Source: a virus (lineage: Duplodnaviria > Caudoviricetes). Taken from it: a stretch of DNA of 64,000 bases. The notes under the pieces are model-generated. The model was not told the DNA's origin and did no database searches. It saw nothing but the letters and a program-made list of their open reading frames with translations. Positions 136 through 64,000 of the stretch are shown here, one piece after another. The translations under genes and the position numbers were made by a program. How positions within the stretch are numbered: the first letter of the stretch is position 1; each line of letters begins with the position of its first letter. Location of the stretch: positions 234 through 64,233 of the IMG/VR virus record IMGVR_UViG_3300030104_001945. One strand, written 5' to 3'.

Positions 136-1647
136 ATGAAACAAGAACTCGTAGAGAAAGCTAGGAATATTCTTTTAGATCCGAAAGTATCTAAAAACGT
201 AAAAGAACAAGTTTTCGAAATACTAGAAAAACAAAGAACAAAAGCTACTAATAGTGCTGCGCATTCTGGAATTTTGGATTATGCTAAACATATGTATCCG
301 GGATATAGTGATCCTGCACATATAAAACTTATTGGACAAAACCTAGAAAGTTTAGAGAAAGGCGAGATTGATAGATTAGCTATCTTTATGCCACCACGAC
401 ATGGCAAGTCCATGCTTTGCTCGGAATTTTTTCCAGCGTGGTATCTTGGACGTAACCCTAGAAATTTTGTAATTCAATCCACTTATGCTCAAGAACTAGC
501 TGATGATTTTGGACGCAAGGTGCGTAACCAATTAAAATCAGAAGATTTCATGAGAGTATTTGAGGGTGTAGGATTAAGAGATGATTCAAGCTCAGCGAAA
601 CGTTTTCACACAGTACATGGCGGGACGTATAGCGCAGTCGGTGCTGGTGGTGCTATTACAGGTAGAGGTGCACATTTATTAATTATTGATGATCCTATAA
701 AAGGGCGTGAAGAAGCAGAGTCCGGGCTTCAGAGAAGAAACTTAATCGAATGGTACAAAGCAGTCGCTTACACGAGATTACAGCCGGGAGGTAAAGTTAT
801 ATTAATTCAAACTCGATGGCACGAAGAAGATTTAGCTGGATGGATATTAGAGAACTCAGGTGAAAACTGGAAAGTTTTAGACCTACCAGCAATAAATGCG
901 AATGGTGATGCGTTGTGGCCAGAAGCATATCCCGTGTCTAAGTTAGAAAAAATTAAAGCGACAGTTGGAGATAGAGTATGGGAGTCATTATACCAGCAAC
1001 GTCCTACAGCAGAACAAGGTGCTATACTCAAGAGAGATTGGTGGCGAAAATTGGATCACGAACCTCAATACGATTTTATCGTTCAAAGTTATGATACTGC
1101 TTTTAGTACGAGAGAATCTGCTGACTTTTCAGCGAGAACGACATGGGGAGTATTCTCTCGTGTAAACGAAGATGGTCAAATAGAAGCATGTATACATTTA
1201 ATTGAAGCATGGAAAGACAGAGTAGAGTATCCTGATTTAAGAAGAATAGCCCAAGAAGCATATTGGGATATGAAACCTAATTTAGTATTAGTCGAGAAAC
1301 GTGCATCAGGACAATCATTACTTCAAGATTTAAGACGTGCAGGTATTCCTGTTCATGAATTTAGACCAGATAAAGATAAAGTTTCAAGAGCACATGCAGT
1401 CGCTCCCATGTTAGAGAGTGGTCTAATATGGATTCCCGATAAAGAAATATGGGTTGATGAACTTCTCGCAGAATGCGCAGCTTTCCCTTATGGAAAGCAC
1501 GATGATTACGTTGATACATGTACTCAAGCTTGGCAGTTAATAAAAGAACAGTATTTAGTAGCGCATCCGCTAGATCCAGATTTATTTGACGAATGGGACG
1601 ATAAACCGATAAAAACAAATTTAATAGAAAAGAGATATTATAGTTAG
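136..1647 (+). CDS. terL: Terminase large subunit
   Basis: Walker A MPPRHGKS, Walker B LLIIDDP, coupling motif IQTRW, C-terminal nuclease SYDTAF...HDDYVD. Confidence 0.96.
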   Translation: MKQELVEKARNILLDPKVSKNVKEQVFEILEKQRTKATNSAAHSGILDYAKHMYPGYSDPAHIKLIGQNLESLEKGEIDRLAIFMPPRHGKSMLCSEFFPAWYLGRNPRNFVIQSTYAQELADDFGRKVRNQLKSEDFMRVFEGVGLRDDSSSAKRFHTVHGGTYSAVGAGGAITGRGAHLLIIDDPIKGREEAESGLQRRNLIEWYKAVAYTRLQPGGKVILIQTRWHEEDLAGWILENSGENWKVLDLPAINANGDALWPEAYPVSKLEKIKATVGDRVWESLYQQRPTAEQGAILKRDWWRKLDHEPQYDFIVQSYDTAFSTRESADFSARTTWGVFSRVNEDGQIEACIHLIEAWKDRVEYPDLRRIAQEAYWDMKPNLVLVEKRASGQSLLQDLRRAGIPVHEFRPDKDKVSRAHAVAPMLESGLIWIPDKEIWVDELLAECAAFPYGKHDDYVDTCTQAWQLIKEQYLVAHPLDPDLFDEWDDKPIKTNLIEKRYYS

Positions 1648-6253: not shown

Positions 6254-7168
6254 ATGACAGACGATGTGAAAGATATTACACCCGATAATGAAATCGAGGT
6301 AAAAATAATCGAAAGTGAAGTTGATCAACTAAAAGAAGAATCTAATCCTCTTGAAGTTAATCAAGAAGAAAAACCTCAACAGTCCGCCGAACCAGAAGAT
6401 TTAAGTAAAACAGTTGAATCTCTACGAAGTGAATTAGAGGAAATAAAAAAGGAACCTTATAGTGCTCGTGTTAAAACTCGAATTGCTAAAGAAGTTTCAA
6501 AAAGAAAAGCAGAAGAAGATAAATCTAAAATGCTTGAAGAAAGGTTAGCTAAATTAGAAAGTGCTGCACAACAACAAGATAAGAGTAGTCTTGAAAATCA
6601 ATATCAAACAGTTTCAAAAGATTTAAAAGAAGCTATTGAAGGTGGAGATACTGAAAAACAAGTAAGACTAATGGACGAGATGGCTGACGTAAGAAGTAAA
6701 ATTCAAAACGTTCAACAACCTGCTCCTGAAGTTAAACCACCAGCACCTCAAATCCCTGAAATAACTCAACAATGGATTCAAAATAATTCTCATTGGTGGA
6801 ATAAACCAGGGCATAGAGCAGCAACCCAAACAGCATTTGGAATTGACGCTGATTTAACAGAAGAAGGATATGATGTCGCTGATCCTGAATATTATACAGA
6901 AATGGATAAAAGAATGAGCAAATTATACCCTGACTTAGTTAAAACAGCAGAAAGTTCTGTTCAAAACCAAGAAAAAGATGTAGAAAATAAACCAAGAGTG
7001 CAATCACCTGTAGCCGGTGTTTCTCGATCAAATCAAGGAACCGCTAAAAGTGTAAGATTGACATCTGATGATTTACAGAACGCTGTTACGTTCGGTATTG
7101 ATATTAATGATCCATCCGCACTAAAGAGATACGCAAAAGAACTTGCAAATCTCAACACGGGAACATAG
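6254..7168 (+). CDS. Probable capsid scaffolding protein
   Basis: Acidic coiled-coil protein between portal and capsid genes. Confidence 0.7.
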   Translation: MTDDVKDITPDNEIEVKIIESEVDQLKEESNPLEVNQEEKPQQSAEPEDLSKTVESLRSELEEIKKEPYSARVKTRIAKEVSKRKAEEDKSKMLEERLAKLESAAQQQDKSSLENQYQTVSKDLKEAIEGGDTEKQVRLMDEMADVRSKIQNVQQPAPEVKPPAPQIPEITQQWIQNNSHWWNKPGHRAATQTAFGIDADLTEEGYDVADPEYYTEMDKRMSKLYPDLVKTAESSVQNQEKDVENKPRVQSPVAGVSRSNQGTAKSVRLTSDDLQNAVTFGIDINDPSALKRYAKELANLNTGT

Positions 7169-7640
7169 GAGCCTGATTATGACAAAAGAAAAAAGCACTT
7201 CTCTAAAAATAGAGAGAGAAACACGTGATGAAAGTACACGAATAAAAGAGTGGAAACCACCTTCTTTATTAGAAGCACCTCCAGCTAGGCCTGGCTACAA
7301 GCAGAGATGGGTTGCAACTAAAATACTTGGGGTAGATAATCCTACTAACTGGGCAAAACGCCGACGTGAAGGTTGGGAGCCAAGAAAACCTGAAACTATG
7401 GAAGGTTTTCATGCACCAACAATTGAACATGGGCAATATGCAGGGTTTATAGGAATCGAAGGTATGGTACTGTGCGAAATGCCAGAAGAAATGGTTAACC
7501 AGCGAAACGCTTACTATCAGAACAAAACAGATGCTCAGATGGAAAGTGTTAAAAGTGACTTACATAGAGCTGAGTCCCCTGGGAATCCAATTCATCGAGA
7601 CCATAAAACCAGTGTTACTAGAGGTGGAATCAAAGAATAA
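7143..7640 (+). CDS. Conserved head-module protein (start probably 7179)
   Basis: WKPPSLL...RWV...REGWEP; AGGAG precedes ATG 7179. Confidence 0.6.
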   Translation: MQISTREHRSLIMTKEKSTSLKIERETRDESTRIKEWKPPSLLEAPPARPGYKQRWVATKILGVDNPTNWAKRRREGWEPRKPETMEGFHAPTIEHGQYAGFIGIEGMVLCEMPEEMVNQRNAYYQNKTDAQMESVKSDLHRAESPGNPIHRDHKTSVTRGGIKE

Positions 7641-7668
7641 TAACGTAGCATAGCTAAAAGGAAATATT

Positions 7669-8238
7669 ATGGCTAATACAGACGCACCTAGTGGTTTTAC
7701 ACCACTAAGACACCTTACAGGTGGCGTTATACGTGCCAACGAATATGAAATTGCCAACTCGCAGGCAGATACTTTTTCTTATGGTGACATAGTCACTATG
7801 GATGCATCTGGCCAACTTGATGGTTTTGCCAATAACAAAAATGCTATTGGTATTTTCTATGGCGTTGAGTACATTGATGACGCAACAGGTAATGTTGAGT
7901 TCGTTAAACGTTGGAAGGGCGGTTCTACAGTAAAATCTGGAACTACTCCTAAAGCATATGTTTATGACGATCCAAACATTACTTTTTCAGTACAAGCAGG
8001 CAATGGGGCCATTACACAAGCAAACGTGGGAGAACTTTGCAACGTGTTATTAACAGCATCAACAACTCCTTACTTCCATTCAAGACACGAAGCAGATATG
8101 GATACTTTAGCCACTACTGCAAAAGTGTTAAGAATTTTAAGAGTTGAACCGATACCTGGGAACGAAACAGCAGAAAATGCTAAAATAGAGGTTGTAATTA
8201 ACAATCACTTATTCGGTACTCAGAATGCAGGAATATAG
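7669..8238 (+). CDS. Capsid decoration/auxiliary protein
   Basis: Beta-rich protein immediately upstream of the major capsid gene. Confidence 0.65.
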   Translation: MANTDAPSGFTPLRHLTGGVIRANEYEIANSQADTFSYGDIVTMDASGQLDGFANNKNAIGIFYGVEYIDDATGNVEFVKRWKGGSTVKSGTTPKAYVYDDPNITFSVQAGNGAITQANVGELCNVLLTASTTPYFHSRHEADMDTLATTAKVLRILRVEPIPGNETAENAKIEVVINNHLFGTQNAGI

Positions 8239-8247
8239 GGGTATAGC

Positions 8248-9165
8248 ATGGCATTAAATAGATCATTATTTACAAAACAGCTAAACCTCGGTCTAAACAC
8301 TATTTTTGGTATGGAATACGATATGTACCCAGAACAGTGGAGACAAGTATTTAGCACAGAGTCATCCAAAAAAGCATTTGAAGAAGATGTTCAAATGTAT
8401 GGATTCGGAGCAGCTCCGGTTAAAGCTGAAGGCGCAGCTATCTCTTATGATAGTGGTGCTGAAGGTATCGTTGCAAGATACGTTCATGAAACTATCGCAC
8501 TTGCTTTTGCAATTACTGAAGAAGCAGAGGAAGATGGTCTTTATGGATCACTTGGAGCAAAATATGCGAAAGCACTTGCTCGTTCAATGCAACATACTAA
8601 AGAAATCAAAGGTATGAACGTTCTTAATAACGGTTTTTCTACTTCTGCAAGTCCAGTACTTGGTGGAGATGGTAAAACGTTAATGGCTACTGATCACCCT
8701 CTAGGTGGCGGTGGTACAGGTTCAAACCAACTAGCAACTAATGCAGACTTAACAGAAACTTCTCTTGAAGCAATGTTAATTCTAATTTCTGAGATGAAAG
8801 ACGATAGAAGTATTCCGATTGCAGCTCAGGGCATGAAACTAGTGGTTCCACCTGAACTAATGTTCATAGCTGAAAGAATTGTTGCAAGTAACCTACGACC
8901 AGGTACTGCTGACAATGACGTCAACGCAATGAAAAATATGGGAATGATCCCACAAGGTGTTGCAGTTAACCAAAGACTAACTGACCCTGATGCGTACTTC
9001 ATGATTACTGATGTACCTGATGGACTAAAACACTTTGTAAGACGTGCTATCAAAAAATCCGTTGAAGGAGATTTTGAATCAGGCAACTTGCGTTACAAAG
9101 TTTCTGAAAGATACTCATTCGGTTTCACTGACTGGAGAGGTTGTTTCGGAACTCCGGGCGCATAG
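8248..9165 (+). CDS. Major capsid protein (HK97 fold, Mu gpT-like)
   Basis: 305 aa; KAEGAAISYD, ALAFAITEEAEED, LVVPPEL, ERYSFGFTDWRG; followed by a terminator. Confidence 0.9.
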   Translation: MALNRSLFTKQLNLGLNTIFGMEYDMYPEQWRQVFSTESSKKAFEEDVQMYGFGAAPVKAEGAAISYDSGAEGIVARYVHETIALAFAITEEAEEDGLYGSLGAKYAKALARSMQHTKEIKGMNVLNNGFSTSASPVLGGDGKTLMATDHPLGGGGTGSNQLATNADLTETSLEAMLILISEMKDDRSIPIAAQGMKLVVPPELMFIAERIVASNLRPGTADNDVNAMKNMGMIPQGVAVNQRLTDPDAYFMITDVPDGLKHFVRRAIKKSVEGDFESGNLRYKVSERYSFGFTDWRGCFGTPGA

Positions 9166-45011: not shown

Positions 45012-45680
45012 ATGGATATAAAATTAAAATATTTAAATAATTTTGAAAAGAAAATAGATAATGATATTTATAGTGAACCTAAATCTAAATTACATTATGG
45101 TGTAATAGAACCTCAAACTCAAAAATTTTTAGATACATTTGAAATTAAAGAAGATAAATCAGTTATAGATATAGGTTGTGGAGATGGATATTTTTTATCA
45201 CTATTACAAAAAGCAGGGTTTAAAAATTTAGTTGGAGTAACTAAACATGATGAAGATATAAAAAATTGCAGTAACTATGGATTAAAAGATATTAGAAAAA
45301 CTGATATGACTTTTACAGGGATAAAAGAAAATTTTGATGCTTTATGGTGTAGACATGTATTAGAACATAGTCCATATCCTTATTTAACTTTACATGAATT
45401 TAATCGTTTAGTTAAAATGGGAGGTAATGCTTATGTAGAAGTTCCTGAAGCTGAGGGATATATTAAACATGAAAATAATGCAAATCATTACTCTATGTTA
45501 ACGAAAAGAAATTGGGTATCTTTAATTTTACGATGTGGTTTTGATATAAATAAAATACAAGATATTGATTTAAGTATAAAAAATCCAGAATTTCAAGATG
45601 GGAATCCTTACCCAGAGCAATGGTGGGCTTTTTATTTAACTAAAACAGTCGAATTAAATTTTATGAAAGGAGAGTTATGA
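45012..45680 (+). CDS. Class I SAM-dependent methyltransferase
   Basis: VIDIGCGDG, FDALWCRHVLEH, LVKMGG. Confidence 0.88.
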   Translation: MDIKLKYLNNFEKKIDNDIYSEPKSKLHYGVIEPQTQKFLDTFEIKEDKSVIDIGCGDGYFLSLLQKAGFKNLVGVTKHDEDIKNCSNYGLKDIRKTDMTFTGIKENFDALWCRHVLEHSPYPYLTLHEFNRLVKMGGNAYVEVPEAEGYIKHENNANHYSMLTKRNWVSLILRCGFDINKIQDIDLSIKNPEFQDGNPYPEQWWAFYLTKTVELNFMKGEL

Positions 45681-46735
45681 AAGCAATAGGAAGTTATATA
45701 TTTGCTGGTGGATTCACTATCGGCGTTAAAAAACATTTTGATATTGAAGCACATTTAGAAGGTGATGGATATGGAGCTGATACATTTAGTTTAAATTATC
45801 CAGAAATACCAGTTTTTGTTGGTCCAGAAGATTGGCCTACAGAAAAATATAAAGATAAAATAGATTTTATATATGGTAATCCTCCATGTGCTCCTTGGAG
45901 TACGTTAGGTTCTGGAAGTAAAGGTGCAGATGCATGGAAAACTGATCCTCGTATTAGTTGTTGGAACGATGTATTTTCTTTACTTTATAAAATAAAACCA
46001 AAAGCTTTAGCTATTGAGTCAGTTCCTCGTGTTTATTCAGAAACAGGAGGTAGACCAATGATAATGGATTTTACAAGAAAAGCTAATGAAGAAGGATATG
46101 CAGTTACTCATTTACTAATAGATGGTCAATATGCTGGACTTCCTCATTCAAGAAAAAGATTTTTTTTCATAGCGCATAAAGGAAATTTTAATCCCCCTGC
46201 TCCTAACTGGAATCCTGCGCCAACTGTAGGAGAAGTGTTAGATGAATTAAAAGCAGATGGAATTGAAGCAGGACACACAGCAACGTTAAGTGAAAATGAA
46301 ATGAAATTAACTAAACTGGCTAAACCTGGAGAATCTTTAAGAAATATATGGGAAAGTTTAAACCCACCAGAAACTTGGAAAAGGTCTACTAAAGGAAGAA
46401 AAGGAGTTATAGGTAGACCTCAATTTATGAAATGGAGATTAACTAGAGAACAGATAATGGGAGTTATTGCTGGAAGTTTTTCTATACATCCAGAAGAAGA
46501 TAGGCTTTTAGGAATACAAGAATTATGTGCTTTCTCTGGATATCCAACAGATTATAAATTTGCTGGAGCAAAATCAGGGTGGCCTAGTTTATTAGCTAGA
46601 GGAGTAATGCCTCCAGTAGGTGAATGGGTAGCTAGAAATGTAAAAACAATGATTGAGTCAAATCAACCTTTCGAAGTTAATCATAAAATTATTGATTATC
46701 GTAAACCAACAACAGGAGATTTATTTAATGCTTAG
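45677..46735 (+). CDS. DNA cytosine-C5 methyltransferase homolog with altered SAM-binding motifs
   Basis: Catalytic GNPPC, IESV (motif VI), PHSRKRFF (motif VIII); motif I YIFAGG and motif X ARGV are atypical. Confidence 0.82.
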   Translation: MKAIGSYIFAGGFTIGVKKHFDIEAHLEGDGYGADTFSLNYPEIPVFVGPEDWPTEKYKDKIDFIYGNPPCAPWSTLGSGSKGADAWKTDPRISCWNDVFSLLYKIKPKALAIESVPRVYSETGGRPMIMDFTRKANEEGYAVTHLLIDGQYAGLPHSRKRFFFIAHKGNFNPPAPNWNPAPTVGEVLDELKADGIEAGHTATLSENEMKLTKLAKPGESLRNIWESLNPPETWKRSTKGRKGVIGRPQFMKWRLTREQIMGVIAGSFSIHPEEDRLLGIQELCAFSGYPTDYKFAGAKSGWPSLLARGVMPPVGEWVARNVKTMIESNQPFEVNHKIIDYRKPTTGDLFNA

Positions 46736-47108
46736 AGATATTGAAGAGTTCCATAAAAAATTTGGATTTAAAAAAAGACAAGGTATCAAAAATAATAAAG
46801 ATTTGGTAGACTTTCGGATTAAATTCTTAGAAGAAGAATTAAGAGAATTTAAAGAAGCAATTAAAGAAGAAGATGATGCGAAAGCATTAGATGCTTTAGT
46901 TGATTTAACTTATGTAGCTATAGGAACGGCTTATCTATTTGATTATCCTTTCTGGGTTGCATGGTCAGAAGTACAGAAAGCAAATATGGCAAAAGTAAGA
47001 AAAGAAAGTGAACGTTCTAAATTTGATGTAACTAAACCTAAGGGTTGGAAAGCACCTAATATAGAACAAGTTCTTCACACATTTAAAAAATGGAGCGCAT
47101 GGTCATGA
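46728..47108 (+). CDS. MazG-like nucleotide pyrophosphohydrolase (possible dCTPase/dUTPase)
   Basis: EEELRE...DALVDLTYVAIG...EVQKANMAK...KPKGW; AGGAG before ATG 46728. Confidence 0.85.
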   Translation: MLRDIEEFHKKFGFKKRQGIKNNKDLVDFRIKFLEEELREFKEAIKEEDDAKALDALVDLTYVAIGTAYLFDYPFWVAWSEVQKANMAKVRKESERSKFDVTKPKGWKAPNIEQVLHTFKKWSAWS

Positions 47109-48151
47109 AAGTATTAGTAACAGGATTTACTGCGAAAGGTATTGGCAGTGGTAAAAATGTATTAGAGATTGCGACAGCAGCTAATTGTTTACCAAGAGCA
47201 TTAAGAGAATGTGGAATAGAAGTTGATCATAAACCAGTTATACCTGGAGAAGATATATCAGAATATGATAAAGTAGTTGTATTTGCTTTTGCTCCTAATT
47301 CTTTACCATCATCTTATTTATATGGAGGTCTTTATACTTTATTGAAAAGACCTGACGCATACATAGCATTAGATGATTGGCAAACTAAAGATATAAAACA
47401 AGGGTGTGGTACTTTCGCACGTGATGGCCATTGGCGATTATGGAAAAGAGTAAGTAAAGCAGGTAACTCTGTTGGTAAAAAATTCTTTAATGAAGCACAG
47501 CCCTATAAAAAAGAAATGGAAGATTTAATTACGCAATTAGCTTTCGAACAGTGGCCATATAGAGTTCTAGCACCAGTTTATAAGGGTGGAGACGTATCTC
47601 AACTAGGAATAGATTCCGCAGAAATTATACCATGGGATCCAACTCCTGTTACCGATAGCTATAAAGCAGGAAGTAAATATAATCAATCTTTATTCTCAAG
47701 AATAGATTCACATGATGGACCTAAAAATAAAGAATGGATAATGGCTTCGTTAATTCAAAAACAGAGTTGGTTTAAACGTCAACATTTCGAGTGGAAAGTA
47801 ACTTGCTACGGTAATCCTAATTTAGGTCAAGAACGATTAACTGAACCAGAATTATATAATGAATACCTAAGAGTAAGAGGAATATTAATACCTCCTCATT
47901 ATCATACGATAAAAGGTAGTGGTTGGTGGAGAGTTCGTTATGGCATGATAGCAGACGCAGGTTGTATTGCTTATGGAGAACAAGAAGAAACTAAACTTTT
48001 TGGCGATGCATATAGAATTCATCATAGTGATATAGAAAAAATGAACGACAATGAATTAGATGATTTAGCTAAAGCGCAGAAAGAAGATTTTAATTCTACA
48101 GTATGGAATAAAAATAGATTAAATACGTTTATCGGAGATTACTTTTTATGA
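47105..48151 (+). CDS. GT-B DNA glycosyltransferase-like protein (T4 beta-glucosyltransferase-like)
   Basis: DISEYDKVVVFAFAPN resembles BGT DVNDYDRLIVVNSSIN; WWRVRYGMIADAG resembles BGT TLRVWETMASDA; similar length; context. Confidence 0.62.
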   Translation: MKVLVTGFTAKGIGSGKNVLEIATAANCLPRALRECGIEVDHKPVIPGEDISEYDKVVVFAFAPNSLPSSYLYGGLYTLLKRPDAYIALDDWQTKDIKQGCGTFARDGHWRLWKRVSKAGNSVGKKFFNEAQPYKKEMEDLITQLAFEQWPYRVLAPVYKGGDVSQLGIDSAEIIPWDPTPVTDSYKAGSKYNQSLFSRIDSHDGPKNKEWIMASLIQKQSWFKRQHFEWKVTCYGNPNLGQERLTEPELYNEYLRVRGILIPPHYHTIKGSGWWRVRYGMIADAGCIAYGEQEETKLFGDAYRIHHSDIEKMNDNELDDLAKAQKEDFNSTVWNKNRLNTFIGDYFL

Positions 48152-48753
48152 AAGACAGGAAGAATATAATTAGAGGTATAATTATAGTAGAAGGTGCAGA
48201 CTGTACTGGTAAAACTACTCTAACAGATTTACTTCGTAAAAAGTTTAAAGCACGTTATATGCATTTACGAATCCATAAAAGAATGGAGATATGGCATAAA
48301 GCAACTGTTCGTAGAGCAATAAGATTAGCTAAAGATGAGTTAGTTGTAATAGATAGGCATTGGCCATCAGAAGAAGTTTATTCTTACGAAAGAGCAGATG
48401 GCCCTGAATATAATCCTATTAAGTTGTATAAAAAATTAAAGAAAGCAAATACGTTATATGTATGGTGTGCGCCAGAAGATAGTGCTAGAGTTATAAAAGT
48501 ACATAGAAAAAAGAAAGAAGAACGACATGAAGAATATAGTGATATTACTCGAATTGTCGATAGATACAAACGTTCATGGTATGGTTTAAACTATGAGCAC
48601 GATAATTTTCTTAAATCTCTAGGAGAGTTAAGATGGCGAAAAAACTTCATACGATATGATGTTTTTAAAGAAGGTCATAAGATTGATAGTAAAACTTATG
48701 ATATAATTAATCGATTACGATATTTGAGAGGAGAAGCAGTATGGACGGTTTAG
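48148..48753 (+). CDS. dNMP kinase (thymidylate kinase-like)
   Basis: P-loop VEGADCTGKTT, VIDRHWPSE. Confidence 0.85.
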   Translation: MKDRKNIIRGIIIVEGADCTGKTTLTDLLRKKFKARYMHLRIHKRMEIWHKATVRRAIRLAKDELVVIDRHWPSEEVYSYERADGPEYNPIKLYKKLKKANTLYVWCAPEDSARVIKVHRKKKEERHEEYSDITRIVDRYKRSWYGLNYEHDNFLKSLGELRWRKNFIRYDVFKEGHKIDSKTYDIINRLRYLRGEAVWTV

Positions 48754-49595
48754 CAGCTTTAGCAGCAGATAATGTTTGGAATGATGCTATTTTAGATATT
48801 CAAGGTGGAGTAGAATCCGCACCTCGTGGTTTAGTAACACGAGAAAAAATAAATCATACAACGATGTGCGATATGAGATATCCTATCGTTACTAACACGA
48901 GAAGATTATTGGGTTATAAGTTTATGATTCAAGAAGCTATTTGGATATTAAGAGGGGATAATAGATTAAGTACAATAGAACCTTACTCTAAGATGATTGG
49001 TAAATTTAGTGATGATAAATATTTCTTTCGAGGTGCATATGGTCCTAAAATTATAGATCAACTTCAATATATATGTAAGTCATTAAAAGAAGATAGAAAC
49101 ACGAGACAAGCAGTTATAAATATTTGGAGAGAAAGTCCTCATGATACTAACGATGTACCTTGTACTGTATCTTTTCAATTTTTAATTCGTCAAGATAAAT
49201 TACATATCATAGCTAATATGCGTTCAAACGATTTGTGGTTAGGTTGGCCTTATGATAATTTTAATTTTTCTATGCTTGGCGCATACGTTGCTTTATTACT
49301 ATATGATATTTATAAAGTAGAAGTAGGATTAGGAATAACAACTATTAATGCTGGTTCACGTCATTTATATAAACCAAATTTTGAGTCAGCAGATATGTGT
49401 ACTCGTTCTAATTATGAAGATTATGTGAACTATAAACCATTGAATTTAAAGGATTATAGTAGTGCAGAAGATTTCTTAGAGCATTTAGAATTTGTATCTT
49501 TAGATAAAGGTCAAATTAACGAAATGAAAGTAAAAGCATTAGACCGTGAATATGGAAAAGGATTTGCCCATGAACTTTTCAACAAGGCCAAGTAA
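48741..49595 (+). CDS. Thymidylate synthase homolog, predicted dCMP hydroxymethylase-type
   Basis: GAYGP, RQAV, catalytic DVPCT, MRSNDLWLGWPYD with Asp at the E. coli TS Asn177/T4 gp42 Asp179 position. Confidence 0.82.
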   Translation: MDGLAALAADNVWNDAILDIQGGVESAPRGLVTREKINHTTMCDMRYPIVTNTRRLLGYKFMIQEAIWILRGDNRLSTIEPYSKMIGKFSDDKYFFRGAYGPKIIDQLQYICKSLKEDRNTRQAVINIWRESPHDTNDVPCTVSFQFLIRQDKLHIIANMRSNDLWLGWPYDNFNFSMLGAYVALLLYDIYKVEVGLGITTINAGSRHLYKPNFESADMCTRSNYEDYVNYKPLNLKDYSSAEDFLEHLEFVSLDKGQINEMKVKALDREYGKGFAHELFNKAK

Positions 49596-58798: not shown

Positions 58799-59149
58799 AT
58801 GCAAACACAATCTGCTGTAACTAGCTCCGGACAAAAACCCGCAGTTAGAAAGACTAAAGCAAAGCCAAAAGTAATTAGTACACCTAGTGATAAGACTGGT
58901 GTTTTAAAGTACGATGGCGATGCGAGAATACAACTACTAGCTCCTAAAAATCCTAAAAGAGTAGGGTGCGAGGGCTGGAAAAGATTTAATCTTTACAAAA
59001 ACGGTATGAAGATTAAAGATTTCATAAAAGCTGGTGGAAAAACAATAGATTTAGACTGGGACAGAGATAGAGGCTTTATCGCTACTGAAGATAGAGACAA
59101 AGTCGGGTCGCAGAGTAAGTCGCCTAAATCAACTTTTGATATGAAATAG
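58799..59149 (+). CDS. Basic protein, NPK...RF..YK family (distant paralog of 62671 and 63429)
   Basis: KNPKRVGCEGWKRFNLYKNGMKIKDFIKAGGKTIDLDWD; promoter and AGAAAGGAG SD. Confidence 0.75.
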   Translation: MQTQSAVTSSGQKPAVRKTKAKPKVISTPSDKTGVLKYDGDARIQLLAPKNPKRVGCEGWKRFNLYKNGMKIKDFIKAGGKTIDLDWDRDRGFIATEDRDKVGSQSKSPKSTFDMK

Positions 59150-61552: not shown

Positions 61553-61810
61553 ATGAAAGAAGGACGATTAAAATATGCCGAACTTTCTAATTATGACGAA
61601 GAAGCCGGACCTTTACTTTTTGAGGGAGAAGTCGTTGGAGATTGGAGAGAAGAACACGATAGTGCTTTAGGGACATATAAATATATTAGCCTTAACACTG
61701 AATTACCCATTAGACCTGGGGATAATATACAAGCTCATTTTCACGATCATTATTTTAGTGAGCAAGATATTATTGATAACATCTTAAAAATAAAAGGAAA
61801 AACAAAATGA
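61553..61810 (+). CDS. Hypothetical early protein
   Basis: Promoter and SD. Confidence 0.6.
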   Translation: MKEGRLKYAELSNYDEEAGPLLFEGEVVGDWREEHDSALGTYKYISLNTELPIRPGDNIQAHFHDHYFSEQDIIDNILKIKGKTK

Positions 61811-62015
61811 ACGCCTTAACAAATCTATTAAAAAAGAATAAAGACAAAACTGAATTACTTGTTTTTATTCTTCAAACTTTGGATAAAGAATTTAATGCTG
61901 AAGTTCAATCAACTGATAACCCTATTGGATTAATTAGGGATAAAATTGATAGAATATTAAATAAATAAAAACCTATACATTTAACCTCCGATAAGATAAA
62001 TTGGAGGTTAATTAT

Positions 62016-62453
62016 ATGGATAACATTATAGAATTTTCTGAGGTCGAGAATAAGATTTTATCAGACAAAGAAAAAAAGTTCGTCAATAACATTATAGCAG
62101 GTTTAACCAAGAAAAGAGCGGCATTAGAAGCTGGTTATGCCGAATCGTCAGCTCACGTACAAGCCACCCGCCTACTAAAGAAGGATAAAATCCTGAGGGC
62201 GGTGAGCCGAGGGCGGGCGGTCCATGCCCAACAGTCCATTCACACTCTCGACAAGGAGGTTGAGAAGCTGGACGTGTTGTATGAGGCGGCAGTTGCGAAG
62301 AAGCAACTCGGAGCAGCGGTGCAGGCTGCACGGTTGAAGGCCCAACTCTTGGGGTACTTGGTTGAGAAGAAAGAAGTCAAACACTCCGTCCTTGACACGA
62401 TGAGTGATGATGAGTTGATCACCTACCTTGACAAGTTAGCCTCCGCAGGTTGA
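62016..62453 (+). CDS. terS: Terminase small subunit
   Basis: LSDKEKKFV...AALEAGYAESSAHVQATRLL HTH typical of TerS; GGAGG before ATG 62016. Confidence 0.85.
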   Translation: MDNIIEFSEVENKILSDKEKKFVNNIIAGLTKKRAALEAGYAESSAHVQATRLLKKDKILRAVSRGRAVHAQQSIHTLDKEVEKLDVLYEAAVAKKQLGAAVQAARLKAQLLGYLVEKKEVKHSVLDTMSDDELITYLDKLASAG

Positions 62454-62600
62454 GTGTTGTTGCGGGATGCAGGCGGCATCAGCCTTCCTCCACCGTCCTC
62501 CGCCCGCTAGGCGGCGGTAGGATGCGGCGTGAGGCGGAGCCGATTATATATATTTCATCGACCTGGACTCCTAACAAAGTTATTAACATTTATTATTTTT

Positions 62601-62670
62601 AATTGTTTCTTTTTGTTCTAAAAAATCGTATTATAAGCCATAGCAAAAAAGCTATAGAAAGCGAGAACTT
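62601..62670 (+). promoter_or_regulatory. Early-type promoter plus SD
   Basis: TTGTTT...TATTAT(62629), AGAAAGCG. Confidence 0.65.
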
Positions 62671-63057
62671 ATGTCTCAGAATAAAAAATTTCCGACTTCA
62701 CTTAAAGTCCTGGAAAATCGCGCAATTATGTTTCTTTATGTTAATCAAAAGAAACCGTCAGGAAAAGCCTTTGCACGATACGATAAATACAAAACAGCGA
62801 ACAGTATTACAGAAGCCGTGGACCGTGGGTGGACACCGCTAGACATGCAATACGAAACGAAAAGCAATAACCGCTTTAAAAAGTTCGTGACTATGTGTTT
62901 CATCGAGGGTGTCAATATAACGAAAGAAACCAAGGACATCCTAGAGTTCGTTATCAAAAAGAATAGAGAGGTACTCAAAGACCTACCGAAAGCTATTCAA
63001 GAAAAAGCGAAAGCGAACATCGACAAATTCGATAAATTAGCACAATCAATAAAATAA
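62671..63057 (+). CDS. Hypothetical basic protein, paralog of 63429..63824
   Basis: NKKFPTSLKVL, YETKSNNRF, TKETKD match the downstream ORF. Confidence 0.8.
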   Translation: MSQNKKFPTSLKVLENRAIMFLYVNQKKPSGKAFARYDKYKTANSITEAVDRGWTPLDMQYETKSNNRFKKFVTMCFIEGVNITKETKDILEFVIKKNREVLKDLPKAIQEKAKANIDKFDKLAQSIK

Positions 63058-63065
63058 ATAATTAC

Positions 63066-63098
63066 AGGGGGCGTCACACCGGCGCCCTCGTTTTTTTT
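63066..63098 (+). terminator. Intrinsic terminator
   Basis: GGGGGCGTC-ACACC-GGCGCCCTC followed by T8. Confidence 0.8.
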
Positions 63099-63132
63099 AT
63101 TGAGCATTGAGCCACAGCACTCCGCCGCCCTG

Positions 63133-63178
63133 CGGGTGAGTTGAGCATTAAGCTTCGGGTGAGTTGAGCATTAAGCTT
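63133..63178 (+). repeat. Perfect 23-bp tandem duplication
   Basis: CGGGTGAGTTGAGCATTAAGCTT at 63133-63155 and 63156-63178. Confidence 0.95.
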
Positions 63179-63327
63179 CGGTTATATATGCATAAGCATA
63201 TATATAGATAATAAAAAATAGAGATAATATATTATAAAATACTTAAACCAAACTAAAATTTTAACGATTTTATAGTTGTTTATAGTGATTTTACGATAGA
63301 TTATTAATAGATATAGAAAGGAAAATT

Positions 63328-63384
63328 ATGACGATTTTAATTATAATTATCGCTTATTTTATAGTTTTAAGCTTTACTTTTTAA
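63328..63384 (+). CDS. Hydrophobic micropeptide (18 aa)
   Basis: MTILIIIIAYFIVLSFTF with AGAAAGG SD. Confidence 0.5.
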   Translation: MTILIIIIAYFIVLSFTF

Positions 63385-63428
63385 TAAATAATCTATAATA
63401 ATATAGATAGAAAGGAGAAATATAGAAA

Positions 63429-63824
63429 ATGGAAAATAGTAATAAAAATAAAAAATTTCCTTCTTCGCTTAAAGTATTAGCGTCTAATAAAATTCTTTTT
63501 AGATTAATAAATATAAAAAGAGAAAATACTAGATCGTACGATATATTCGAAGAAAGTAAATTTTCGACTACTATTAAAGATTTATTTACTTTAACGAATT
63601 ATCGTAAAGTAGATTATTCTTACGATACTAAAGAGAATAATCGCTTTTCTACTATAAGATTAATAGTAGAAAATAAAAACGATACTAAAGAAAATAAAGA
63701 CGAATTAATTTCTATTATCGAAGAAAATAAAAAGTATTTAAACGATAAAGAAAATAATATTCGTAATAGAAAAGCTATCGAAGAAAATATTTTATTCTTC
63801 GAAGAAAAAATTTCTAATCTTTAA
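63429..63824 (+). CDS. Hypothetical protein encoded without CA/TG/CC/GG dinucleotides
   Basis: AGAAAGGAG SD; protein lacks Q, H, C, W, G and internal M and has a single P; paralog of 62671. Confidence 0.8.
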   Translation: MENSNKNKKFPSSLKVLASNKILFRLINIKRENTRSYDIFEESKFSTTIKDLFTLTNYRKVDYSYDTKENNRFSTIRLIVENKNDTKENKDELISIIEENKKYLNDKENNIRNRKAIEENILFFEEKISNL

Positions 63825-63847
63825 TTACTAAATATATATTTAATAAT

Positions 63848-63883
63848 AAATCTCTCTAATTAATTTTAGAGAGATTTTTTTTT
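63848..63883 (+). terminator. Intrinsic terminator
   Basis: AAATCTCTCTAA / TTAGAGAGATTT plus T-run. Confidence 0.75.
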
Positions 63884-64000
63884 ATTTTTAAAATTAGTAA
63901 TCGAATAAAAAAATAAATCGTATTAAGTTTAATCGTAAAAAAATCGTATAAGTTTCTTTTACGATTTCGAGAAAGTTCGTGGGGTACGACTAAGCTTTAT

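What the first reader, a model, noticed from the sequence alone, without database searches (positions are those of the whole stretch)
63200..63979. Gene island purged of CA, TG, CC and GG dinucleotides
Seen: in 63461-63979 (519 nt) every C (about 48) is followed by G or T and every G is preceded by C or A, so CpA and CpC are absent on both strands. In 63288-63460 the only exceptions are functionally forced: two Shine-Dalgarno GG, two ATG starts and one conserved Pro codon. The constraint covers coding DNA, spacers and even the terminator stem (built from TCTCTC/GAGAGA). The 131-aa protein therefore lacks Q, H, C, W, G and internal M, residues its paralog uses freely. CG is abundant, so this is not simple AT-richness. 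Inference: the phage hypermodifies C in CpA/CpC context and keeps this transcription unit free of bulky modification so that host RNA polymerase can read it first. An alternative is blanket evasion of host nucleases by first-entering DNA. Either would be a sequence-encoded bootstrap for a modified genome, which I have not seen described.
Basis: partly seen in the sequence, partly recalled or inferred. Interest (0 to 1): 0.95.

Follow-up and report, generated by a model that had tools for sequence, protein, structure and literature searches.

The report
Phage gene cassette purged of CA/TG/CC/GG
A family of uncultured marine phages keeps one small self-contained gene cassette next to its DNA-packaging genes almost free of four of the sixteen DNA dinucleotides, which points to an unidentified factor, probably tied to the phage's own cytosine modification, that reads C followed by A or C.

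Summary
Window 63460-63980 is a 521-nt run without CA, TG, CC or GG; about 52 are expected from base composition. The longest such run elsewhere in the 64-kb record is 72 nt, outside the island and its overlap copy.

The purged unit is a whole transcription unit: a sigma70-like promoter, an 18-aa hydrophobic micro-ORF, a 131-aa gene (P2) and a terminator. P2 carries 3 forbidden dinucleotides, the minimum its protein allows; synonymous resampling gives 28.7.

The purge is conserved. All 46 relatives' loci with upstream DNA listed (TerL 65-98% identical) have a depleted island upstream of TerL, as do 2 further records (TerL 64-66%). There is one island per genome, beside a paralog of normal composition. 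Substitutions that would create a forbidden dinucleotide are filtered out. One subclade purges only CA/TG.

The phage encodes a T4-like hydroxymethylcytosine and glycosyltransferase gene set plus an odd C5-methyltransferase homolog. Nothing here shows that the mark depends on context, or that the cassette is expressed or injected first.

Best reading (about 0.35): exemption from the phage's own C[A/C]-context mark. Main rival: evasion of host nucleases by exposed leading DNA.

This scan found CA/TG-only purged cassettes before in other phages. The CC/GG extension and the switch of rule between subclades are new here.

The parts
63276..63304 (+). Sigma70-like promoter TTGTTT-N17-GATTAT. The TG inside its -35 TTG is a conserved exception to the purge.
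   Evidence: Alignment of 11 upstream regions from three subclades: TTG, the T's of the -35 and A/T/A/T of the -10 are 90% or more conserved. The pattern occurs only twice in the window, which is chance level. Function is inferred.
63329..63385 (+). 18-aa hydrophobic micro-ORF (MTILIIIIAYFIVLSFTF) with its own Shine-Dalgarno (GG at 63320)
   Evidence: A 17-24 aa hydrophobic ORF behind an SD-like sequence lies upstream of P2 in all 16 loci examined, from all three subclades. Its SD and ATG are among the few exceptions to the purge.
63429..63824 (+). P2, a 131-aa protein of unknown function; the purged paralog of P1
   Evidence: ORF. It carries 3 forbidden dinucleotides, which is the minimum achievable; synonymous resampling gives 28.7, sd 4.1. 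Orthologs in relatives. AlphaFold2 pLDDT 90.6. No Pfam or PHROG family and no fold match: best Z 4.0.
63848..63887 (+). Intrinsic terminator whose stem is built from TCTCTC/GAGAGA, followed by a T run
   Evidence: sequence read.
63888..63979 (.). Purged non-coding tail with three AATCGTA repeats and one inverted TACGATT. The purge ends at TGGGG (63980).
   Evidence: 0 forbidden dinucleotides in 63825-63979.
63100..63180 (+). GC-rich left border block with TTGAGC-type repeats, including two copies of a 23-bp unit. Possibly a terminase-binding or packaging region.
   Evidence: 4 of the 8 plus-strand TTGAGC sites of the window lie in 63100-63169. Similar TTGAGC/TTGAC arrays stand at this place in relatives. 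A role in packaging is inferred only.
62671..63057 (+). P1, a 128-aa paralog of P2 with ordinary composition (61 forbidden dinucleotides)
   Evidence: 32% identical to P2 in alignment A1.
62001..62453 (+). Terminase small subunit gene (context)
   Evidence: PF03592, E 5.3e-9.
136..1647 (+). Terminase large subunit gene. It follows the island across the circle junction (context).
   Evidence: PF03237 and PF17289. Record 1-96 equals window 63904-63999.
45677..49595 (+). Candidate writers of the mark: C5-MTase homolog, MazG-like protein, BGT-like glycosyltransferase, dNMP kinase-like protein and dCMP-hydroxymethylase-like TS homolog (context)

Best explanation
The island is an autonomous transcription unit read by host RNA polymerase: promoter, micro-ORF, P2, terminator. 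Purifying selection keeps it free of 5'-CA and 5'-CC on both strands, which is why TG and GG are absent too.

The most likely reason is that C followed by A or C is the context in which this phage clade places a bulky post-replicative mark on its hydroxymethylcytosine DNA. The candidate writers are the BGT-like glycosyltransferase and/or the C5-methyltransferase-like base flipper. The cassette would thus be the one piece of the chromosome that never carries the mark. It can then be read by unmodified host machinery and cannot be recognised by anything that senses the mark.

Shown: the purge, its limits, its conservation, the filter on substitutions, and the gene set. Inferred: that the mark depends on context, which enzyme sets the context, and why exemption pays.
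For: 1. The constraint acts on DNA, is strand-symmetric and runs from promoter to past the terminator with sharp borders in all relatives examined.
2. Codon choice in P2 is at the theoretical minimum: 3 of 3 unavoidable, against 28.7, sd 4.1, by synonymous resampling.
3. 43% of possible substitutions in the 519-nt core would create a forbidden dinucleotide. Among 8 close relatives, at most 10 of 114 variant alleles do; 2 of these (L046, A>G) lie well inside the core and the other 8 lie in the last ~50 alignment columns at the right border. Binomial p = 1.6e-15.
4. There is one island per genome. In 4 complete or near-complete records the minimum is 0-6 forbidden dinucleotides per 300 nt, against a mean of about 50, sd 10-11.5. 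All 46 loci with upstream DNA listed have a depleted island, weaker in L015 and L019, as do G008 and G009.
5. The forbidden set is exactly one short motif, C[A/C], plus its reverse complement. One subclade has the narrower set, CA/TG only, as expected if an enzyme's neighbour preference drifts.
6. The gene set for hmC plus glycosylation is present in all three subclades. The C5-MTase homolog is found in 5 of 5 and the TS homolog in 4 of 5 relatives' records.
7. Context-dependent phage hypermodification has precedent: GpC[C/T] through C5-MT, TET and GT (PMC8256090, passages); TG for Pbunavirus thymine (PMC12191111, passages).
8. The conserved exceptions are the -35 TTG, the SD GG, the ATG and one Pro. 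This is what a trade-off with expression predicts.
Against: 1. In the T4-type pathway every C is replaced before replication, so a context rule needs a second, unproven step.
2. 6-mer palindromes that contain CC or CA are avoided genome-wide about as strongly as those without: CCTAGG 0.25, CCATGG 0.28 and GGTACC 0.34 of expectation. Of the 14 most avoided words, 10 lack and 4 contain a forbidden dinucleotide, from a tested set of 31 and 25. C[A/C] sites therefore do not look shielded.
3. ACGT is at expectation in the genome (132 observed, 138 expected) but depleted in the islands (6 observed, 25.2 expected). Its C lies in a CG context, so a C[A/C] mark does not explain the difference.
4. Phage 14-1, with a reported TG-context mark, has no TG/CA-free island: longest run 85 nt.
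5. The accessory sugar and methyl genes vary among subclades without tracking the rule.
6. A later check of a sister finding of this scan priced 'dodges own mark' at 27 in 100 (an AI note, not evidence).
Confidence: 0.35

Rival explanations
1. Exposed leading DNA. The cassette lies at or near the chromosome end that enters the cell first, or is otherwise exposed before the phage's protection is in place. It has been stripped of the half-sites of a host nuclease that reads C[A/C], in modified or unmodified form, much as McrBC reads a two-base half-site (R-mC; recalled). P2 and/or the micro-peptide would be the pre-early counter-defence.
For: The island sits between TerS and TerL beside repeat arrays that look like a packaging site.

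The islands are also poor in GATC (2 observed, 19.0 expected) and ACGT (6 observed, 25.2 expected), more so than the rest of the genome. This fits DNA that must avoid restriction by its sequence alone.

The promoter is host-type.

Published precedent: T5 and BF23 are restricted only through sites in the first-step-transfer region (PMC10644984, passages), and motif position in the leading region decides Type I sensitivity in marine Murciavirus (PMC12455610, abstract).

A subclade-specific rule also fits different hosts.
Against: The physical ends are unknown. The record closes into a circle by a 96-nt overlap. Contig ends near the island are scattered, not stacked at one place. Only contigs could be laid.

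The genes that follow the island are late ones (TerL, structural genes), an odd order for a leading end.

I can name no nuclease with C[A/C] specificity.

Other allowed palindromes are at expectation in the islands: TCGA 65 observed, 79.8 expected; AGCT 20 and 26.2; CTAG 23 and 24.9; GTAC 9 and 6.7. 'Blanket' evasion is therefore not what is seen.
Confidence: 0.28
2. Exemption from a reader made by the phage itself. The phage makes a host-shutoff factor, a nuclease or an Alc-like transcription blocker, that recognises unmarked C[A/C] in host DNA. The cassette has no such sites, so it keeps working whatever the modification state of its DNA, for instance on freshly replicated DNA that is not yet marked.
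For: Same anatomy as above. T4 offers the analogy: EndoII, EndoIV and Alc act on C-containing DNA (recalled). This reading needs no ordered entry of the DNA.
Against: No candidate gene was identified in this work. It does not explain why only this cassette is exempt. It does not explain the extra loss of GATC and ACGT.
Confidence: 0.1
3. A physical or packaging role. DNA without the CA/TG and CC/GG steps has special mechanics needed next to the packaging start, and the genes merely live there.
For: Position beside TerS, TerL and the repeat arrays.
Against: The borders coincide with a transcription unit, from -35 to past the terminator, not with a fixed distance from the repeats. In some relatives other genes lie between the island and TerL. 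The rule differs between subclades that share the same terminase.
Confidence: 0.07
4. A footprint of mutation. A RIP-like or deaminase-type process turned C into T at CA and CC in one copy of a duplicated gene.
For: P2 is the duplicate of a neighbouring gene. If all CA, CC, TG and GG of P1 were mutated, its GC content would fall from 37.5% to about 22%, close to the island's 20% (arithmetic). The phage has a C5-MTase homolog with an altered cofactor site.
Against: The ORF is intact and conserved across three subclades. The purge persists while P2 has diverged to 43-67% amino-acid identity. The variant spectrum is led by A/T transversions (49 of 114), not by C>T plus G>A (16 of 114). At conserved residues CA was removed by changes such as TCA>TCG and GTC>GTA. 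P1 is untouched.
Confidence: 0.04

Closest known systems
CA/TG-purged phage cassettes noted earlier by this scan (for example e1-179886, e1-142970, e1-5932430); Wifcevirus ECML-117 checked here
   Same: Strand-symmetric loss of a dinucleotide step over a small promoter-to-terminator cassette, conserved in relatives. In ECML-117 I confirmed a CA/TG-depleted block at 6574-8512: minimum 6 per 300 nt against a mean of 43, sd 7.2.
   Different: In this window CC/GG are purged too and the purge is complete (521 nt). The phage carries cytosine-modification genes and no thymine-type ones were found. The rule switches between subclades. ECML-117 keeps CC/GG and its longest CA/TG-free run is 118 nt. I did not test where its block lies relative to the physical ends. 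My searches found no published description.
Site-free first-injected regions: T5/BF23 first-step-transfer DNA and the Murciavirus leading region
   Same: A small part of the chromosome must lack recognition sites, while the rest may carry them (PMC10644984, passages; PMC12455610, abstract).
   Different: Those cases concern particular 5-13 bp restriction sites and a proven order of injection. Here two whole dinucleotide steps are missing and the order of entry is unknown.
Context-specific phage DNA hypermodification: C5-MT/TET/GT at GpC[C/T], and the Pbunavirus thymine mark at TG
   Same: Phage marks limited to a 2-3 base context. The gene clusters hold a C5-MT, a glycosyltransferase and an epimerase/dehydratase-family enzyme (PMC8256090, passages; PMC12191111, passages).
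   Different: No TET was found here, though that search had an uninformative control. hmC probably comes from a dCMP-hydroxymethylase-like enzyme. No exempt island is described in the passages I read. Phage 14-1 has none.
T4 glucosyl-hydroxymethylcytosine system
   Same: dCMP-hydroxymethylase-like TS homolog with Asp at the Asn177 position, dNMP kinase-like and MazG-like genes, dCMP deaminase, and a glycosyltransferase of BGT fold.
   Different: T4 is not known to keep a purged cassette (recalled). The clade here shows strong avoidance of palindromes, including CGCG at 6 observed against about 158 expected.

Membership tests
Dinucleotide-purged phage cassette (this scan's CA/TG class) | Strand-symmetric near-absence of a dinucleotide step over several hundred bases | tested here: met
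   0 CA/TG and 0 CC/GG in 519 nt; run of 521 nt.
Dinucleotide-purged phage cassette (this scan's CA/TG class) | Covers a complete transcription unit, with exceptions only at expression signals | tested here: met
   Promoter, SD, ATG and Pro are the exceptions; terminator inside the unit.
Dinucleotide-purged phage cassette (this scan's CA/TG class) | Conserved in diverged relatives | tested here: met
Dinucleotide-purged phage cassette (this scan's CA/TG class) | Lies near a physical genome end or in a terminal repeat | not testable with these tools
   Only contigs were available. The record closes by a 96-nt overlap.
First-step-transfer or leading-region site avoidance (T5, BF23, Murciavirus) | The region is injected first | not testable with these tools
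   No raw reads and no host.
First-step-transfer or leading-region site avoidance (T5, BF23, Murciavirus) | The avoided words are recognition sites of host restriction systems | tested here: inconclusive
   GATC, ACGT and CGCG are depleted in the islands. TCGA, AGCT, CTAG and GTAC are not. The dinucleotide purge itself matches no site that I know of.
T4-type hmC plus glycosylation pathway | TS-family enzyme specific for cytosine (Asp in place of TS Asn177) | tested here: met
   PYD aligned to PFN of TS; best solved relatives are CMP hydroxymethylase, E 1.2e-18. Asp is present in all 8 orthologs. Activity was not tested.
T4-type hmC plus glycosylation pathway | DNA glycosyltransferase | tested here: met
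   Model pLDDT 80.3. The top four Foldseek hits are T4 BGT entries, E 6.5e-6 to 2.2e-5, TM 0.52-0.61. This is fold only.
Context-specific hypermodification (C5-MT/TET/GT type) | C5-MTase with intact catalytic motifs | tested here: inconclusive
   PF00145, E 5e-28. The PC, ESV and RKR motifs are kept. The first Gly of motif I is Phe, and the region aligned to DNMT1 GNAVPPP reads ARGVMPP.
Context-specific hypermodification (C5-MT/TET/GT type) | TET/JBP dioxygenase | tested here: inconclusive
   No PF12851 match, but the control rang in no genome.
Context-specific hypermodification (C5-MT/TET/GT type) | The mark is limited to a short sequence context | not testable with these tools
   Needs modification mapping of virion DNA.
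RIP-like or deaminase hypermutation | Changes dominated by C>T and G>A | tested here: not met
   C>T plus G>A make up 16 of 114 variant alleles; A>T plus T>A make up 49 (changes not polarised).
RIP-like or deaminase hypermutation | Both repeat copies are hit and the genes decay | tested here: not met
   P1 is normal, with 61 forbidden dinucleotides. P2 is intact and conserved.

The most novel reading that the evidence does not exclude
Phages with context-dependent DNA hypermodification write an 'unmarked bootstrap cassette' into their genomes. The set of dinucleotides missing from that cassette would directly report the sequence context of the mark: C[A/C] in two subclades here, CA alone in the third. 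Modification motifs of uncultured phages could then be read from sequence alone, and P2 with its micro-peptide would be a first-acting factor, either a counter-defence or an adaptor for the marked chromosome.
Probability: 0.25. Interest if true: 0.9.

Novelty: new variant of a known kind. Interest (0 to 1): 0.8.

Why it matters
If the purge mirrors a writer or reader of C[A/C], it gives a sequence-only handle on DNA modification contexts in uncultured marine phages. It would also point to a new layer of genome organisation: a cassette kept chemically 'plain' inside a marked chromosome.

The constraint is strong enough to remove seven amino acids (Q, H, C, W, G, and all but one M and one P) from a conserved protein. 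In one lineage it has even replaced the family's conserved proline.

The difference between subclades (CA/TG alone against CA/TG plus CC/GG) is a ready-made prediction for modification mapping. The CA/TG-depleted block in culturable coliphages (Wifcevirus) offers a laboratory model for the general phenomenon.

Tried and rejected
- Similarity of 62400-64000 to GenBank phages (blastn, distant mode), and tblastn of P2: no match.
- Pfam and PHROGs for P1, P2 and P3: nothing.
- Fold searches of the P2 model: Foldseek had no hit at E <= 0.001; the VIA wide search gave best Z 4.0.
- ESM Atlas for P1: only unnamed viral clusters, scores 0.84-0.87.
- Profile search of the P1/P2 family: 329 proteins; none of the 120 listed carries a functional name or a Pfam domain.
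- TGT/DpdA family: absent, with a working control.
- T7-type RNA polymerase and TET/JBP families: no match, but both controls were uninformative.
- Read laying: all four runs were contigs, so ends, strand and timing cannot be read. Contigs of RNA libraries touch P2 at 63327-63655, 63568-63718 and 63702-63850, but this does not show transcription.
- Contig starts near the island are scattered, so they mark no terminus.
- The AATCGTA/TCGTAT motifs and the promoter pattern are not enriched in the genome. The sigma70 scan of 61800-64000 gave 12 sites against 8.2, sd 3.2, expected.
- Test of whether restriction avoidance is limited to words without C[A/C]: inconclusive; 10 free and 4 forbidden-containing words among the 14 lowest, from 31 and 25 tested.
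- Test of whether the anti-END gene of phage 14-1 sits in a TG-free cassette: no such cassette exists.
- Search for gene gain or loss that tracks the CC/GG rule: none found among the 15 window genes compared.
- Records G006, G007 and G010 lack the DNA upstream of TerL, so they say nothing.
P1 is not partly purged: 61 forbidden dinucleotides against 49.9 by synonymous resampling.
- Supplementary files of the papers were closed. Those of PMC8256090 and PMC12191111 may hold motif data that I could not see.
Full report
**What is there.** The window is bases 234-64233 of a 64,233-nt virus record. The record's first 96 bases repeat window 63904-63999, so the map closes into a circle. The flagged stretch lies between the terminase small subunit gene (62001-62453, PF03592) and the large subunit gene (136-1647, PF03237 and PF17289), across that junction.

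In 63461-63979 there is no CA, TG, CC or GG; 21.2, 20.3, 4.4 and 6.3 are expected from composition. CG is 24 against 5.3 expected. Mononucleotide shuffles give 52.0, sd 5.1, minimum 31 of 5000. The forbidden-free run is 521 nt. Outside the island and its overlap copy, the longest run in the record is 72 nt.

**Anatomy.** The purged stretch is a transcription unit. It holds:
- a conserved sigma70-like promoter, TTGTTT-N17-GATTAT, at 63276-63304;
- a Shine-Dalgarno sequence and an 18-aa hydrophobic micro-ORF at 63329-63385. A micro-ORF of 17-24 aa is present in all 16 loci examined;
- a second Shine-Dalgarno sequence and P2 at 63429-63824;
- a terminator whose stem is TCTCTC/GAGAGA;
- about 100 further purged bases, ending at TGGGG (63980).

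From 63279 to 63979 there are seven exceptions: TG 63286, two SD GG, two ATG, the GG formed by ATG-GAA, and one Pro CC.

P2 carries 3 forbidden dinucleotides, the minimum its protein allows. Synonymous resampling with the genome's codon usage gives 28.7, sd 4.1, minimum 14 of 5000. P2 lacks Q, H, C, W and G and has one M and one P. Where P1 has such residues, P2 has K, L, I, E, T, N, Y, S or R.

**Conservation.** The TerL search returned 80 loci. All 46 loci with upstream DNA listed (TerL 65-98% identical) carry an AT-rich depleted island upstream of TerL. The depletion is weaker in L015 and L019. Loci of more distant phages (TerL 32-40% identical) have no run above 50 nt.

In four whole records there is exactly one island each: minimum 0-6 forbidden dinucleotides per 300 nt, against means of 49-51, sd 10-11.5. 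Two further records (TerL 64-66%) have it as well. Three others lack the relevant DNA. The roughly 0.85 Mb around the C5-MTase gene in 54 loci has no run above 73 nt.

Wherever both genes are on the contig, the upstream paralog P1 has 50-77 forbidden dinucleotides. P2 has 1-3 in most loci, 5 in L046, 11-18 in one subclade and 14-25 in L013, L015 and L019. L052 and L058 have even lost the family's conserved proline and carry a single forbidden dinucleotide, the ATG.

**Selection, not a single event.** P2 DNA is 92-99% identical among close relatives, much like TerL DNA at 89-95%, so the island is not evolving unusually fast.

In the 519-nt core, 666 of 1557 possible substitutions (43%) would create a forbidden dinucleotide. 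Among 8 close relatives, at most 10 of 114 variant alleles do. Two of these (L046, A>G) lie well inside the core; the other 8 lie in the last ~50 alignment columns at the right border. p = 1.6e-15. A/T transversions lead the spectrum (49 of 114). C>T plus G>A account for 16. This is a purifying filter and argues against a deaminase or RIP-like origin.

**A switch of rule.** A TerL tree gives three well-supported subclades. In A (the window's) and B, P2 has CA+TG at 1 against about 32 expected and CC+GG at 0-2 against 8-11. In C, CA+TG is 5-9 against about 31, but CC+GG is 6-9 against 7.5-9.4, which is no depletion. So the thing being avoided is C[A/C] in two subclades and CA in the third.

**The phage's modification genes.**
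- The TS homolog matches CMP 5-hydroxymethylase best (E 1.2e-18, against 9e-13 for the best TS). It has PYD where TS has PFN, that is, Asp at Asn177, in all 8 orthologs.
- The 353-aa protein (model pLDDT 80.3) has T4 beta-glucosyltransferase as its best fold match: four entries, E 6.5e-6 to 2.2e-5.
- A C5-MTase homolog keeps the PC, ESV and RKR motifs but has Phe for the first Gly of motif I, and ARGV where DNMT1 has GNAV.
- MazG-like, dNMP-kinase-like and dCMP deaminase genes, and a family A DNA polymerase, complete the block.
- This core is in all three subclades. The epimerase/dehydratase and SAM-MTase genes vary and do not track the rule.
- No TGT/DpdA was found.

**Evidence bearing on the mechanism.**
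- For a context-specific own mark: the forbidden set is one short motif plus its complement; it drifts between subclades; context-limited phage marks have precedent (PMC8256090 and PMC12191111, passages).
- Against it: palindromes containing CC or CA are avoided genome-wide like the others. The clade almost lacks CGCG (6 observed, about 158 expected) and CGWCG, so the DNA is clearly not a universal shield. Phage 14-1 has no exempt island.
- For 'exposed DNA': the islands are additionally poor in GATC (2 observed, 19.0 expected) and ACGT (6 observed, 25.2 expected), while ACGT is at expectation in the genome. The island abuts TTGAGC repeat arrays beside TerS. Published work shows that only sites in first-injected DNA matter for T5/BF23 and for Murciavirus (PMC10644984, passages; PMC12455610, abstract).
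- Against that reading: the ends are unknown, the genes that follow are late ones, and TCGA, AGCT, CTAG and GTAC are not avoided.

**The protein.** P2 folds with confidence (pLDDT 90.6) into a small alpha/beta head and a C-terminal helical hairpin. It has no relative in Pfam or PHROGs, among solved structures, or in the Atlas. The family has 329 members; none of the 120 listed has a functional name.

**Comparison and novelty.** Notes of this scan describe CA/TG-only purged cassettes in other phages. I confirmed one lead: ECML-117 has a CA/TG-depleted block with CC/GG left alone. I found no published description of such cassettes in four searches. The passages on Wifcevirus that I read do not mention one.

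New here are the four-dinucleotide rule, its completeness, its link to a phage with cytosine-modification genes, and the switch of rule between sister subclades.

**Verdict.** The alternative it named (exposed first-entering DNA) is nearly as likely, and the two readings are compatible.

Noticed in passing
whole window and records G001, G002, G006-G010: The clade almost lacks CGCG (6 sites against about 158 expected over 8 records) and CGWCG (6 against 127, both strands). Many 6-mer palindromes stand at 0-0.3 of expectation, for example AGCGCT at 0 against 11. This suggests strong restriction pressure despite the modification genes.
   Followed up: partly
window 63329-63385 and the orthologous places in 15 loci: A conserved 17-24 aa, very hydrophobic micro-ORF with its own Shine-Dalgarno sequence precedes P2 in all three subclades. 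It is probably a real membrane micro-peptide co-expressed with P2.
   Followed up: partly
window 62192-62542 and 63060-63180: GC-rich blocks dense in the forbidden dinucleotides flank P1. The right one holds TTGAGC repeats (4 of the window's 8 plus-strand copies within 70 nt), and relatives have TTGAGC/TTGAC/TTGAT arrays at the same place. This may be the packaging site.
   Followed up: partly
12 islands (window, L005, L009, L011, L013, L016, L025, L034, L038, L052, G008, G009): Besides the four dinucleotides, the islands are poor in GATC (2 observed, 19.0 expected) and ACGT (6 observed, 25.2 expected), more so than the rest of the genome.
   Followed up: partly
L015:2878-3249, L013:1536-1946 and 2266-2682, L019:2909-3319: In these lineages P2 carries 14-25 forbidden dinucleotides. 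L013 has two P2 copies, and L015 differs from its sister L016, which has 3. They are natural cases of a relaxed purge that could be set against gene content if longer contigs were found.
   Followed up: no
L011:2416-2685: An extra 89-aa gene with no family match sits inside the purged island of this relative and obeys the same rule. With it, the island holds one forbidden dinucleotide in about 864 nt.
   Followed up: no
L038:9379-10029, L052:1267-1920 and 1959-2819: In subclades B and C, extra genes lie between the island and TerL: a 216-aa protein matching phrog_3704 (labelled ferredoxin) and, in L052, a glycosyltransferase-like protein. Both have ordinary composition.
   Followed up: no
window 58799-59149: The gene that a sister note calls the third paralog is not detectably related to P1 or P2 by phmmer; it matches only its own orthologs.
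   Followed up: partly
window 45677-46735: The C5-MTase homolog keeps its catalytic motifs but has altered SAM-pocket motifs. In a genome that probably carries hmC it may have no plain cytosine to methylate, so it may do something other than methyl transfer.
   Followed up: partly
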